Origin: an uncultured Candidatus Saccharibacteria bacterium
GTDB lineage: Bacteria; Patescibacteriota; Saccharimonadia; Saccharimonadales; JANWIN01
DNA: 53,206 nt
Assembly (NCBI GenBank): GCA_964520375.1
Contig: CAZFNQ010000001.1
Span: 5,842-59,047, forward strand
Direction: 5' to 3'
A program made the position numbers and the translations under genes. Of the stretch, positions 3,173 to 5,876 are shown in pieces. Numbering within the stretch: the first letter of the stretch is position 1; the number at the start of each line of letters is the position of its first letter. The notes beneath the pieces are model-generated. The model was given only the letters and a program-made list of their open reading frames with translations, was not told the DNA's origin and ran no database searches.

Positions 3173-3609
3173 CGTTGACGTTGGTGGTGTCGCCGCAGTC
3201 CAGCCACTTTAAGCCGGACAGCGTGGCGATCCATTAAGCTTTGTGCTTGGCTAAGTTCAACTTTGTCCTTGGCCGCGCGGGCCAGCTGTTGAGCGCGGTC
3301 AAAAGCTTTCTGAGCCTCTTGCTCGTTAATCTCATCCTCGCGGTCGGCCTCATCGACCAACACCCGCACTTTGTTGTCAACGACTTCAATAGCTCCGCCG
3401 TTAGTGGCAAAATATTCAAGTTTGCTATCTGGGTCTTCAGGCCGTCGCCTGACAGCTATTACACCTGGCGCGGCCAAAGAAACCAGGGGAATGTGGTGTG
3501 GCAAAACGGCAATTTCACCATCAGGTGTTGGCAAAATAACTTCATAAACATCTTCACCGAATTTAGTTCCGTTGAGCGTAACTAGTTCAAAATGAATAAC
3601 ATCAGCCAT
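3169..3609 (-). CDS. atpC: F1 ATP synthase epsilon subunit
   Basis: N-terminal beta-sandwich signature (LVTLNG..EVILPTPDGEIAVLPHHIPLVS) plus a C-terminal helical hairpin, as the last gene of the atp operon. The ATG at 3609 overlaps the upstream stop as TGATG; a GTG at 3612 is also possible. Confidence 0.9.
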   Translation of the reverse strand: MADVIHFELVTLNGTKFGEDVYEVILPTPDGEIAVLPHHIPLVSLAAPGVIAVRRRPEDPDSKLEYFATNGGAIEVVDNKVRVLVDEADREDEINEQEAQKAFDRAQQLARAAKDKVELSQAQSLMDRHAVRLKVAGLRRHHQRQR

Positions 3610-4127
3610 CACTCATCTCTCTTTTGGCGCTTTTCAATTTCCGATACTAGTTCAGAGCCTTTGGGTGGCCAAACTTGAGCCAATGGTTCTTCTGGCTCGA
3701 TATATGTTCCATCCATCATACAAATGACTTCGCCTATATTTTTAGCTTTCGGATAAGTGCCTGACAACCATACATTAAATGCATCCGCCACTTTCGCGTG
3801 AGTATTAGTTATGGAATTGTCAAAAATCTCTTCGGGCTTTACCCCAGATGTAGGACGTGTCGATTTGTAAACTATATCTTCTAACGACTCTTTGGTGTCA
3901 AGCGTAGCAGCAACATGCTCTTTAATAATATCTGTTGTGAGAACTTCTGCTTCATCTCGCCGACGCATGGCATCGTTAATTGCAGGAGCAGGGAATTTTG
4001 GGTCATCAGATCTAAAGCCTAAGTGATTGGTTGGATCCCAAGTAGCGAAGTCAGCGATGTGACCGTCTGGCGGTCGATCGCCACTAATTTTGTAACCTTC
4101 TTCACCTGGTTCTAGTGGTTGAGCCAT
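3609..4127 (-). CDS. Unknown 172-aa protein inserted between atpD and atpC
   Basis: Same strand as the operon. Its ATG directly abuts the atpD TAG (TAGATG) and its TGA overlaps the atpC ATG. It has no TM and no recognisable motif. Confidence 0.6.
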   Translation of the reverse strand: MAQPLEPGEEGYKISGDRPPDGHIADFATWDPTNHLGFRSDDPKFPAPAINDAMRRRDEAEVLTTDIIKEHVAATLDTKESLEDIVYKSTRPTSGVKPEEIFDNSITNTHAKVADAFNVWLSGTYPKAKNIGEVICMMDGTYIEPEEPLAQVWPPKGSELVSEIEKRQKRDE

Positions 4128-5525
4128 CTATTTGTCCTGGACGTCCTGGATTGTGCCCTTCATATAAAAGGCGCTTTCGGGCTTGGCGTCGTGTTTACCG
4201 TCTAAAATCTCGCGGAAACCGGCAATTGTATCTTTTAGTGGCACATACAGACCGGGCCGGCCGGTAAAAGCCTCGCCGACAAAGAATGGTTGAGTCAAGA
4301 AGCGCTGTATGCGCCGAGCCCTTGACACAGTCAACTTATCCTCGTCAGACAATTCTTCCATGCCTAATATGGCAATAATGTCCTGCAAATCTTTATAGCG
4401 CTGCAGCACGCGCTGAATTTCACGGGCCACATCGTAATGCTCCTGGCCGACAATTTCCGGGTCCAAAATTGTTGATGAACTATCTAAGGGATCGACGGCA
4501 GGGTAAAGACCTAATTCGGTAAGAGCTCGACTGAGCGCTATAGTGGAATCTAGGTGGGCGAAAGTCGTGGCCGGGGCCGGGTCAGTGAAGTCATCAGCTG
4601 GCACATAAACAGCCTGCACGGAAGTAATTGAGCCTTTTTTAGTAGAGGTAATACGCTCCTGCAAGGCACCCATTTCCTGGGCCAAGTTAGGCTGATAGCC
4701 GACAGCTGAGGGCAGGCGACCAAGCAAGGCTGATACCTCAGCACCAGCTTGGGTAAAACGGAAGATGTTATCAATAAACAGCAGCATGTCTTTGCCGGCA
4801 TCACGAAAGCCCTCGGCAATCGTCAGACCGCTTAAGCCCACCCGTAAACGAGCGCCAGGCGGTTCGTTCATTTGACCAAACACTAGTGCAGTTTTAGCGA
4901 TAACGCCCGATTCTTCCATCTCATGGTATAGGTCGTTACCTTCACGGGTGCGCTCACCGACGCCGGCAAATACTGAATAGCCGCTGTGGAATTTGGCAAT
5001 ATTGTTAATAAGTTCTTGGATCAGCACGGTTTTACCGACGCCAGCTCCGCCAAACAATCCCGCCTTACCACCGCGGGTCATGGGACAAATAAGATCGATA
5101 ACCTTAATACCGGTTTCCATAACTTCTACTTTGGCCGATTGCTCACTTAGAGCCGGCGGTTCTTTGTGGATTGGTGCCCGGGTTTTTATATCAGCTGGTT
5201 TGGAGTCTATTGGTTCTCCGATAACATTAAACATGCGCCCCAATGTTTTATCACCGACAGGTACGCTAATCGGCCCCCCCGTATTTTCAACTTCGCTACC
5301 GCGTTTTAAGCCATCAGTACTGCCCATGGCCACCGCCCGGACACTGGTTTCGCTTAAATGCTGTTCTACCTCAAGGTAAAGGTCCTTATCGTTCAGCTTT
5401 ACTTTTAGGGCATAATAAATTGCCGGTAAATGTTCAGCCGGGAAATCAATATCAACCACCACCCCGACAATCTGGCTTATTTTCCCACTGGCTGCTTTAG
5501 ACTTTTGTTTCGCTGCTTGGGCCAT
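4128..5525 (-). CDS. atpD: F1 ATP synthase beta subunit
   Basis: Walker A GGAGVGKT, the DNIFRF and [15 protein letters not shown] motifs, and an AGGAG SD. Confidence 0.97.
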
Positions 5526-5534
5526 ATTACTCCT

Positions 5535-5876
5535 TTAAAAAATTCTTTCAGGTCTCTTAAGACCGTTATCAATGGTGCGATGGGCCAGTTCCTCGTCAGA
5601 GACCAGCAAACCATTATCAAGCAGCAACTTTGCGTAGTTGGCTTTCCCCCTAACTTGAGCAAAGGCCACAACCGCATCATGCCCAATGCAATTTATTGTT
5701 TGCTCTGCCCACATACTTGGATCTTGACCTGGCTGATCTAGAGCAAGCTCCATAACAATTCGCACCGATTCACCAATTCGTGCTAGTTCCGAATGTGAAT
5801 AATCACGATGGTACTGCAAAGCGATGTCTATTGCACCAATTCCTTGGTCAGTTGGTGAGGTAAGGCTTGTTCTCAT
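5535..5876 (-). CDS. Unknown 113-aa protein inserted between atpG and atpD
   Basis: Its ATG overlaps the atpG stop (ATGA) and its TAA stop sits immediately before the atpD SD. Without this ORF there would be a 347-nt gap inside a tightly packed operon. Confidence 0.5.
   Translation of the reverse strand: MRTSLTSPTDQGIGAIDIALQYHRDYSHSELARIGESVRIVMELALDQPGQDPSMWAEQTINCIGHDAVVAFAQVRGKANYAKLLLDNGLLVSDEELAHRTIDNGLKRPERIF

What the first reader, a model, noticed from the sequence alone, without database searches (positions are those of the whole stretch)
3609..5876. Two unknown ORFs translationally coupled inside the F1 genes of the ATP synthase operon
The operon order is atpI-like, B, E, F, H, A, G, [orf113], D, [orf172], C. 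The start of orf113 (5535-5876) overlaps the atpG stop as ATGA, and it ends just before the atpD AGGAG. The ATG of orf172 (3609-4127) abuts the atpD TAG directly, and its TGA overlaps the atpC ATG (TGATG). Canonical bacterial atp operons have gamma-beta-epsilon contiguous. Lineage-specific small ATP synthase regulators exist elsewhere, such as the alpha-proteobacterial zeta inhibitor and cyanobacterial AtpTheta (established knowledge). Such tight coupling therefore suggests stoichiometric accessory subunits, inhibitors or assembly factors. Neither protein has a TM segment or a motif I recognise.
Basis: partly seen in the sequence, partly recalled or inferred. Interest (0 to 1): 0.65.

Follow-up and report, generated by a model that had tools for sequence, protein, structure and literature searches.

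The report
Variable small genes inside F1 operon
Two small acidic protein genes wedged between the F1 ATP synthase genes of a soil Saccharibacterium are real, and they belong to a clade-wide pattern in which these three gene junctions carry fast-changing extra genes of unknown function.

Summary

Both are real genes:
- Only the annotated frame has genome-like codon usage.
- orf113 has about nine homologues (27-43% identity, plus a 69%-identical fragment). All eight contexts I could read are directly after gamma and/or directly before beta.
- orf172 has five homologues. All five distinct loci I could read place it between beta and epsilon. dN/dS is about 0.2.

Neither gene is a fixed subunit. 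The closest relative (92% identical gamma) lacks both and carries a different 216-aa ORF between alpha and gamma.

Across 82 Saccharibacteria loci:
- 86 of 232 F1 junctions hold inserts of at least 150 nt, against 1 of 282 Fo/stator junctions.
- 82 of those 86 inserts are filled by sense-strand, translationally coupled ORFs.
- 83% of the ORFs are acidic, almost none has a known domain, and most are mutually unrelated.
- Sister species differ in which junctions are occupied.

orf172 shows lower synonymous divergence than its flanks and the lowest GC3 in the window, which suggests lateral exchange.

Best reading: dispensable, co-translated F1-linked accessory proteins in an exchangeable cassette site. 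The function is untested. Hitchhiking cargo unrelated to the enzyme is a serious rival. I found no prior report.

The parts
5535..5876 (-). orf113: 113-aa acidic (pI 5.2) protein, predicted all-helical. Member of a small family that always sits at the gamma-to-beta junction.
   Evidence: - ORF and ATGA overlap with the gamma stop.
- Codon-usage log-likelihood is positive only in this frame.
- A full HMMER scan of 1.84 billion proteins found nine small homologues of 64-128 aa at 27-69% identity, with shared motifs YTSPSDQA, IGEATRLVMEAAL and LL..G.LxSDE.L...DN.F..P.
- All eight readable contexts are directly after gamma and/or directly before beta.
- No Pfam, NCBIfam or PDB relative.
3609..4127 (-). 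orf172: 172-aa acidic (pI 4.7) modular protein. Member of a family that always sits at the beta-to-epsilon junction.
   Evidence: - ORF and junctions.
- Homologues are P0002 (64% identity), P0004, P0005, P0006 and P0007.
- All five distinct readable loci place the gene between beta and epsilon.
- The family is modular. The N-module carries GDRPPDGH..DFA.WDPTN. The C-module carries AFD.W..G.YP.A.N..EV...QVWPPKG..LVS. The middle helical part is missing in P0004.
- dN/dS is 0.19-0.25.
- GC3 is 0.329, the lowest of 50 window genes.
- The AF2 model has pLDDT 61.6 and is partly helical; the conserved N-module has low confidence.
5873..6742 (-). atpG (gamma), upstream partner of orf113.
   Evidence: PF00231, E = 3e-85. 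Its stop overlaps the orf113 start.
4128..5525 (-). atpD (beta), flanked by both inserts. It has its own AAGGAG Shine-Dalgarno sequence.
   Evidence: PF00006, PF02874 and PF22919 hits. Sequence read directly.
3169..3612 (-). atpC (epsilon), with both its N-terminal sandwich and its C-terminal helical domain. Its start overlaps the orf172 stop.
   Evidence: PF02823 and PF00401 hits. Sequence read directly.
6720..10769 (-). Rest of the operon (atpI-like, a, c, b, delta, alpha). Its junctions are tight and serve as the internal control.
   Evidence: Gaps here run from -4 to 88 nt. Across relatives, 1 of 282 such junctions is 150 nt or longer.

Best explanation
orf113 and orf172 are real protein-coding genes, translated by coupling within the atp mRNA. 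Each belongs to its own small, fast-evolving family of acidic cytosolic proteins. Each family is found only in Saccharibacteria atp operons and only at one junction: orf113 at gamma-to-beta, orf172 at beta-to-epsilon.

They are two instances of a clade-wide feature. The three junctions among the F1 genes (alpha/gamma, gamma/beta, beta/epsilon) act as cassette sites. The Fo/stator junctions do not. In about 60% of species the F1 junctions hold one to four sense-oriented, overlapping small ORFs. These ORFs are mostly unrelated between species, and sister species differ in what they carry.

Inferred, not shown:
- Cassettes are gained, lost and swapped by homologous recombination, probably after DNA uptake, using the highly conserved alpha and beta genes as arms.
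- The products are dispensable accessory proteins made together with F1 that bind or tune the F1 sector, as modulators, protectors or assembly helpers. They are not stoichiometric core subunits.
For: Shown by tool results:
- Coding: codon usage fits only the annotated frame. Across relatives, 82 of 86 inserts of at least 150 nt are at least 85% covered by sense-strand ORF chains, against 13 for the antisense strand.
- Coupling: in 72 of 86 junctions the distance from the upstream stop to the insert start falls between -8 and +8 nt. The commonest values are -4 (28 cases), -1 (22) and +2 (10). Promoter- and terminator-like sites are not enriched.
- Selection: dN/dS is 0.11-0.45 for six orthologous insert pairs and 0.19-0.25 for orf172. 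Both families keep conserved motifs.
- Position lock: 8 of 8 orf113-family contexts and all 5 distinct orf172-family loci sit at the same junction. 12 of 13 local families keep to one junction.
- F1 specificity: 86 of 232 F1 junctions are 150 nt or longer, against 1 of 282 Fo/stator junctions.
- Shared character: 83% of 107 insert ORFs have pI below 6 (median 4.6) and only one looks like a membrane protein. Only about a quarter of the window's own proteins are acidic.
- Turnover: the distribution on the gamma tree is patchy. The window carries [none|347|515] nt at the three junctions and its sister L006 carries [633|153|none].
- Exchange: between the window and L001, synonymous third positions of orf172 are 62.5% identical, against 44% in alpha, gamma, beta and epsilon (Fisher p = 4e-4). 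The similar tract starts in the last 40 or so codons of beta.
- Composition: insert GC3 is lower than that of the F1 genes in 48 of 52 loci. orf172 has the lowest GC3 of 50 window genes and orf113 the fifth lowest.
Against: - There is no direct evidence that either protein touches F1.
- There is no structural or sequence similarity to any known ATP synthase regulator or assembly factor.
- The AF2 models are poor, with pLDDT 48 and 62.
- Unrelated sequences at the same junction, and loss in the nearest relative, fit cargo that merely exploits the site just as well.
- F1 specificity could come from where conserved recombination arms lie rather than from function.
- The recombination tract rests on one pair of genomes and about 100 codons.
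- Low GC3 could instead reflect weak codon selection on fast-evolving genes.
- No expression or proteomic data were examined.
Confidence: 0.45

Rival explanations
1. Hitchhiking cargo. The ORFs encode proteins whose function has nothing to do with ATP synthase, for example immunity, antitoxin-like or host-interaction factors. They persist at these junctions only because the site gives strong constitutive expression and because the conserved alpha and beta flanks allow exchange by transformation and recombination. This resembles the 'minimal mobile elements' described in Neisseria (from my own knowledge).
For: - Distribution is patchy and turnover between sister species is fast.
- Most of the 108 ORFs are mutually unrelated.
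- orf172 has low GC3 and a synonymous-site anomaly.
- Clearly unrelated genes can land in the same site: an Avd/23S-rRNA-IVS-type four-helix-bundle protein in L017, and a Crp-type regulator plus antisense genes in L011.
- The ORFs are dispensable in the nearest relative.
Against: - Both families of this window are found only at their junction, 8 of 8 contexts and 5 of 5 loci. A full scan of 1.84 billion proteins found only about nine orf113 relatives, and every context that could be read is at this junction. Free-living cargo should also turn up elsewhere.
- There are no hits to defence (PADLOC) families, and the only phage (PHROG) hit is the single Avd-like ORF.
- The delta/alpha junction also borders the conserved alpha gene, yet none of 71 is 150 nt or longer (maximum 105 nt).
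Confidence: 0.3
2. Translated spacers. The inserted DNA must stay open and translated to preserve translational coupling, to avoid Rho-type polarity, or to tune the alpha:gamma:beta:epsilon output. The peptide itself has no function beyond being harmless, which would explain why it is acidic and soluble.
For: - Nearly all inserts are exactly filled by sense ORFs with overlapping stop and start codons.
- Sequences diverge 3-8 times faster than gamma.
- Sequence content is interchangeable.
- The strong acidic and soluble bias fits selection against harmful peptides.
Against: - dN/dS is as low as 0.11-0.25.
- The orf113 family keeps motifs such as YTSPSDQA and IGEATRLVME at 27-43% identity.
- orf172 has a lower dN than gamma and epsilon in the same genome pair.
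- 30 of 82 operons work without any spacer.
Confidence: 0.12
3. True stoichiometric subunits of a lineage-specific F1Fo.
For: Tight coupling and position lock.
Against: - Both are absent from the closest relative, whose F1 subunits are 90-92% identical.
- 30 of 82 related operons have none, and others have unrelated ORFs.
Confidence: 0.05
4. Non-coding spacers or RNA elements with chance ORFs.
For: No domain hits. Composition is atypical.
Against: - Frame-specific codon usage.
- Protein-level homologues with conserved motifs and dN/dS below 1.
- 82 of 86 inserts are filled by sense ORFs, against 13 for the antisense strand.
- Rfam finds only three tRNAs in the whole window, none of them in this region.
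Confidence: 0.02

Closest known systems
Lineage-specific small F1 regulators: the alpha-proteobacterial zeta subunit, mitochondrial IF1 and cyanobacterial AtpTheta (from my own knowledge)
   Same: They are small soluble proteins restricted to one lineage and tied to the F-type ATP synthase, and each is restricted to one lineage rather than universal.
   Different: - Those regulators are single conserved families per lineage and are usually encoded away from the operon.
- Here there are dozens of unrelated families at three junctions, varying between sister species.
- No sequence similarity was found. A Pfam scan of all 108 ORFs gave no ATP-synthase-related hit.
- Binding to F1 has not been shown.
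F1 assembly chaperones Atp11 and Atp12 (Pfam families)
   Same: They are soluble helpers that act on individual F1 subunits (beta and alpha). The junction-specific position here would suit subunit-specific helpers.
   Different: No Pfam match. Those chaperones are conserved and are not encoded inside the operon.
Extra genes inside rotary ATPase operons: AtpI/ATPase_gene1 upstream of atpB, and the two N-ATPase-specific genes between epsilon and a (PMC11738941)
   Same: They are small non-core genes embedded in and co-transcribed with ATPase operons.
   Different: Those are conserved membrane proteins at fixed positions in the Fo part. The genes here are soluble, acidic, hypervariable and sit only in the F1 part. 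The window has its own ATPase_gene1 homologue at 10473-10769.
Minimal mobile elements of Neisseria: variable cassettes between conserved flanking genes, exchanged by transformation and homologous recombination (from my own knowledge)
   Same: - Different cargo occupies the same site between conserved genes.
- There are no mobility genes or terminal repeats.
- There is evidence of more recent shared ancestry for the cassette than for its flanks.
   Different: Here the site lies inside an essential, translationally coupled housekeeping operon. The cargo is always sense-oriented, promoterless and coupled. Three neighbouring sites are used.
Proteins encoded in the intervening sequences of 23S rRNA (PF05635), and Avd of diversity-generating retroelements
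   Same: One insert, the beta-to-epsilon ORF of L017, is a member of this family. That shows the junctions accept the same kind of ORF that invades other highly conserved loci.
   Different: The two window ORFs and the other inserts give no match to this family.

Membership tests
Zeta inhibitor, IF1, Atp11 and Atp12 (Pfam families of ATP synthase regulators and chaperones) | Sequence match to the family profile | tested here: not met
   A Pfam scan of orf113 and orf172 at E up to 1 gave no family. A scan of all 108 junction ORFs at E up to 0.01 gave no ATP-synthase-related family.
Zeta inhibitor, IF1 or AtpTheta-type regulator | Binds F1 and inhibits ATP hydrolysis | not testable with these tools
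   This needs biochemistry or a multimer structure prediction. Only monomer AF2 was available, and the models were poor.
Core F1Fo subunit | Present in all close relatives that have the enzyme | tested here: not met
   L006 has gamma 92% identical but lacks both ORFs. 30 of 82 operons have no insert.
Minimal-mobile-element-like cassette site | Alternative, unrelated cargo between the same conserved flanking genes in related genomes | tested here: met
   Homology with L006 breaks exactly at the gene borders.
Minimal-mobile-element-like cassette site | No transposase, integrase or terminal repeats | tested here: met
   No mobility domains among the 108 ORFs. Only chance-level short repeats occur around the window inserts.
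Minimal-mobile-element-like cassette site | Exchange by homologous recombination in the flanks | tested here: inconclusive
   Synonymous identity is elevated from the end of beta through orf172 between the window and L001, 62.5% against 44%, p = 4e-4. This is one genome pair, with no breakpoint on the epsilon side.
Integron gene cassettes | attC recombination site after each ORF, and an integrase nearby | tested here: not met
   The ORFs overlap or abut their neighbours by -4 to +2 nt, which leaves no room for attC. There are no structured inverted repeats and no integrase domain.
Free-standing homing endonuclease genes | HNH, GIY-YIG or LAGLIDADG nuclease domain | tested here: not met
   No such Pfam or PHROG hits among the 108 ORFs.
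Anti-phage defence components (PADLOC) | Match to a defence-system profile | tested here: not met
   0 of 108 ORFs match.

The most novel reading that the evidence does not exclude
The three F1 gene junctions of Saccharibacteria form a dedicated, laterally exchanged cassette system. It supplies rapidly evolving F1-binding proteins, for example shields or modulators in an arms race with ATP-synthase-targeting compounds or factors from their actinobacterial hosts or competitors. If so, a core bioenergetic machine would carry a hypervariable accessory layer, which is not known for any rotary ATPase.
Probability: 0.1. Interest if true: 0.85.

Novelty: new variant of a known kind. Interest (0 to 1): 0.62.

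Why it matters
F-type ATP synthase operons are among the most conserved gene arrangements in bacteria. Known lineage-specific regulators are single, conserved proteins.

This case differs. In a genome-reduced, host-dependent lineage the F1 part of the operon carries a fast-turning-over set of small acidic proteins. They appear at exactly three junctions and at essentially none of the Fo/stator junctions.

If the products act on F1, they would be new regulators or assembly factors and would give a handle on how these epibionts manage their energy budget. If they do not, the site shows how small genes colonise an essential operon, are kept translated there and are exchanged between species. That bears on how new genes arise and on recombination in bacteria of the Candidate Phyla Radiation.

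Either way, two orphan ORFs become members of defined families with testable predictions.

Tried and rejected
- Domain searches: Pfam and NCBIfam on both ORFs gave nothing. Pfam, PADLOC and PHROGs on all 108 junction ORFs gave only one 23S_rRNA_IVP/Avd-like ORF and one Crp-like ORF.
- Word-indexed protein search with orf113 found only itself. I first took it for an orphan; the exhaustive HMMER scan corrected that.
- The three large hits to orf113 (P0016-P0018) are TPR, ankyrin and SprB repeat proteins. I rejected them as spurious.
- Structure: AF2 of orf113 from a single sequence gave pLDDT 48. AF2 of orf172 from a 6-sequence alignment gave pLDDT 61.6. Foldseek of the orf172 model against the PDB gave no match with E below 5. 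PDB sequence-profile searches gave nothing meaningful.
- Profile-profile comparison of the two families with each other, with every other junction ORF, and with gamma, beta and epsilon found no deeper link.
- The orf172 N-module looks by eye like the epsilon N-terminus, which would suggest origin by partial duplication of atpC. It is the top hhalign alignment but is not significant (probability 0.16%, E = 0.37). I kept it only as a lead.
- One family seemed to span two junctions (L012 alpha/gamma and L013 gamma/beta). The match is weak, 29.6 bits, and borderline after multiple testing.
- Metagenome contig scans added no new loci.
- The repeat search found no target-site duplications or inverted repeats. 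The promoter and terminator scan was at chance level. Rfam found only tRNAs.
- Three literature searches found no description of this feature.
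Full report
**1.

On the minus strand the window carries a complete F-type ATP synthase operon. Its parts are an atpI-like gene at 10473-10769 (PF09527), a at 9637-10476, c at 9350-9595, b at 8716-9261, delta at 8312-8719, alpha at 6720-8300, gamma at 5873-6742, orf113 at 5535-5876, beta at 4128-5525, orf172 at 3609-4127 and epsilon at 3169-3612. 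Gamma, beta and epsilon give strong Pfam hits.

The orf113 ATG overlaps the gamma TGA (ATGA), and its TAA is followed directly by AGGAG, 9 nt before the beta ATG. The orf172 ATG follows the beta TAG without a gap, and its TGA overlaps the epsilon ATG.

Neither ORF has a Pfam or NCBIfam hit or a hydrophobic segment. The operon region shows no excess of promoter- or terminator-like sites over shuffled sequence. Rfam finds only three tRNAs in the whole window, none of them in this region.

**2. Both ORFs are genes**

A codon-usage log-likelihood trained on the long genes of the window is positive only in the annotated frame: +0.149 for orf113 and +0.204 for orf172, with the other five frames at or below +0.05. 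Both values lie within the range of the window's other genes.

*orf172.* The word-indexed search found a 64%-identical 180-aa protein. A profile search added P0004 (109 aa), P0005 (77 aa), P0006 (71 aa) and P0007 (76 aa). All five distinct loci I could read place the gene between beta and epsilon (and L016).

The family is modular:
- An N-module with GDRPPDGH..DFA.WDPTN.
- A helical middle part that is missing in P0004.
- A C-module with AFD.W..G.YP.A.N..EV...QVWPPKG..LVS.

dN/dS is 0.25 against L001 and 0.19 against L086. In the window/L001 pair its dN (0.228) is lower than that of gamma (0.347) and epsilon (0.289).

*orf113.* The word-indexed search found only itself. The exhaustive HMMER scan of 1.84 billion representatives then found nine small proteins (64-128 aa, 27-69% identity) with shared motifs YTSPSDQA, IGEATRLVMEAAL and LL..G.LxSDE.L...DN.F..P. 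All eight contexts I could read have the gene directly after gamma (with a 4-nt overlap where gene calls are available) and/or directly before beta. Three large hits were repeat proteins and I discarded them.

**3. The two ORFs are not fixed parts of the enzyme**

The gamma subunit identifies the organism as a Saccharibacterium (TM7, Saccharimonadales). It also brought in 80 species-level loci from public genomes.

The nearest, L006, is 92%, 91% and 90% identical in gamma, beta and epsilon. It has neither ORF. Its beta and epsilon overlap by 4 nt, its gamma-to-beta gap is 153 nt, and it carries a different 216-aa ORF between alpha and gamma. In the window, alpha and gamma overlap. DNA homology between the two genomes (about 77%) breaks exactly at the gene borders at all three junctions.

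No member of either family occurs in the other 79 loci, apart from a short orf172 relative in L016.

**4. The wider pattern**

Across 82 loci the junction lengths for alpha/gamma, gamma/beta and beta/epsilon range from overlaps to 3.8 kb.
- Inserts of at least 100 nt occur at 28 of 82 alpha/gamma junctions, 40 of 79 gamma/beta junctions and 23 of 71 beta/epsilon junctions. 52 of 82 loci have at least one.
- 86 of the 232 F1 junctions are 150 nt or longer, against 1 of 282 junctions among atpI-like, a, c, b, delta and alpha in the same loci. This is an internal control within the same operon.
- 82 of the 86 long inserts are at least 85% covered by chains of one to four sense-strand ORFs, with median coverage 100%. 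Only 13 reach that on the antisense strand.
- The inserted ORFs are coupled like ordinary operon genes. The distance from the upstream stop to the insert start is -4 nt in 28 cases, -1 in 22 and +2 in 10, out of 86. Tandem inserts mostly overlap by 4 nt.
- Of 107 such ORFs (median 105 aa), 83% have pI below 6 (median 4.6) and only one looks like a membrane protein. Only about a quarter of the window's own proteins are acidic.
- By BLAST, phmmer, iterated HMMs and hhalign they fall into a dozen tiny families and about a hundred singletons. 12 of 13 families keep to one junction. The single cross-junction match is weak.
- Only two of the 108 ORFs have a clear Pfam domain hit (two others gave weak hits, E about 0.002): a 23S_rRNA_IVP/Avd-like four-helix-bundle ORF in L017 and a Crp-like regulator in the 3.8-kb insert of L011. 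None matches a defence profile.

**5. Dynamics**

Where orthologous inserts can be paired, they evolve much faster than gamma but under purifying selection. Examples are 28% identity where gamma is 86%, 45% and 62% where gamma is 90%, and 71% where gamma is 89%. dN/dS is 0.11-0.45. Fast divergence therefore explains part of the apparent unrelatedness.

It does not explain all of it. orf113 relatives remain recognisable in genomes whose gamma is 58-65% identical. Yet genomes with gamma 65-92% identical carry other ORFs, or none, at that junction. On a gamma tree the occupancy is patchy and sister taxa differ.

For orf172, several signals point to shared ancestry with the L001 copy that is more recent than that of the flanking genes:
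- Synonymous third positions between the window and L001 are 62.5% identical, against 44% in alpha, gamma, beta and epsilon (Fisher p = 4e-4).
- Four-fold sites are 58% identical, against 19-47% in the flanks.
- The similar tract begins in the last 40 or so codons of beta and ends at the epsilon start.
- By epsilon the window is closer to L086 than to L001. By orf172 the reverse holds.

Composition points the same way. orf172 has the lowest GC3 of 50 window genes and orf113 the fifth lowest. Inserts have lower GC3 than the F1 genes in 48 of 52 loci.

Together this suggests lateral replacement of cassettes, most simply by homologous recombination through the conserved neighbours. That step is inferred. 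It rests on one genome pair and on composition, and weak codon selection could also lower GC3. No repeats, target-site duplications or mobility genes flank the inserts.

**6. What the proteins may do**

Nothing here shows function. AF2 gave low-confidence, mostly helical models (pLDDT 48 and 61.6). The most conserved parts of orf172, the N-module and the QVWPPKG segment, are predicted without regular structure, which would suit segments that fold on a partner. That last point is an inference. Foldseek and PDB profile searches found nothing.

I favour, at moderate confidence, dispensable accessory proteins made together with F1 that act on the F1 sector. The reasons are the strict confinement of both families to one junction, the restriction of the whole phenomenon to F1 junctions within one operon, the shared acidic soluble character, and purifying selection.

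The main rival is cargo unrelated to the enzyme that exploits an expressed, recombination-prone site. It is supported by the turnover, by the diversity, and by the landing of clearly unrelated genes in L017 and L011. A translated-spacer role is less likely given the conserved motifs and low dN/dS. Stoichiometric subunits and non-coding spacers are effectively excluded.

**7. Comparison with what is known, and novelty**

The ORFs are not members of any known ATP synthase regulator or chaperone family, since the profile tests were not met. In logic they resemble lineage-specific regulators such as zeta, IF1 and AtpTheta. In dynamics they resemble the minimal-mobile-element cassette sites of naturally transformable bacteria.

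I did not find the combination described: three adjacent, hypervariable, translationally coupled cassette sites inside the F1 half of an essential operon across a bacterial order. I rate it a new variant of known kinds, with moderate to high interest. The open question of function is directly testable.

Noticed in passing
window 20176-22278 (-): Heme-copper (cytochrome/quinol) oxidase subunit I, PF00115 with E = 4.5e-142. This Saccharibacterium therefore has a terminal oxidase, so its ATP synthase may run in the synthesis direction.
   Followed up: partly
window 27908-32227 (+) and 32474-35422 (+): Two very large, very acidic proteins (1439 and 982 aa, pI 4.7 and 4.4). They hit collagen-repeat, CBM_5_12 and phage lower-baseplate (BppL_N) profiles. 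A 2026 preprint (10.64898/2026.03.03.709456) reports a tail-fibre-like protein and a pilus operon co-localised with ATP synthase genes in bacteria of the Candidate Phyla Radiation.
   Followed up: partly
window 4040-4112 (orf172 residues 6-30) versus 3496-3564 (epsilon residues 17-40): The conserved N-module of orf172 (GEEGYKISGDRPPDGHIADFATW) resembles the epsilon N-terminus (GEDVYEVILPTPDGEIAVLPHH). It is the top hhalign alignment but is not significant (33% identity over 24 columns, probability 0.16%, E = 0.37). It is a possible trace of origin by partial duplication of atpC.
   Followed up: yes
L017 3963-4337 (+): The beta-to-epsilon insert of this relative is a 23S_rRNA_IVP / DGR Avd-like four-helix-bundle protein. 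This kind of ORF is otherwise known from intervening sequences in rRNA genes.
   Followed up: partly
L011 8305-12095: A 3.8-kb insertion separates beta from epsilon. It carries a Crp-type regulator in the sense direction and two antisense ORFs of 376 and 319 aa.
   Followed up: no
L036 6870-8095 and L001 1201-3143: Up to four tandem, overlapping unknown ORFs lie in one gamma-to-beta junction in L036, which is a complete chromosome. L001 has extra ORFs at all three F1 junctions, of 112, 138+107 and 180 aa.
   Followed up: partly
window 2681-3172 (+) and 11198-11683 (+): Two further small ORFs of unknown function flank the operon: 163 aa with pI 9.2, and 161 aa with pI 4.7. Neither has a Pfam hit. 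The first has weak similarity to ORFs at the same place in L001. Between the window and L006 the region downstream of epsilon is also non-homologous.
   Followed up: partly
window 1700-2647 (-): A 315-aa protein with no Pfam hit here. The gene at the same position in L001 (between the ORFs downstream of epsilon and the MIP gene) is annotated with PF18484, the cadmium carbonic anhydrase repeat. It lies next to an MIP channel gene at 950-1606.
   Followed up: no
window 6720-6742: Alpha and gamma overlap by 23 nt in the window. Many relatives carry a 90-216-aa ORF at this junction, and those ORFs typically end 8 nt inside gamma, so their C-termini read ...HG...DG or ...NG.
   Followed up: partly
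window 12350-13624 (+): A sigma-70 family protein with regions 2 and 4 and a roughly 150-residue acidic N-terminal extension that matches no profile.
   Followed up: no
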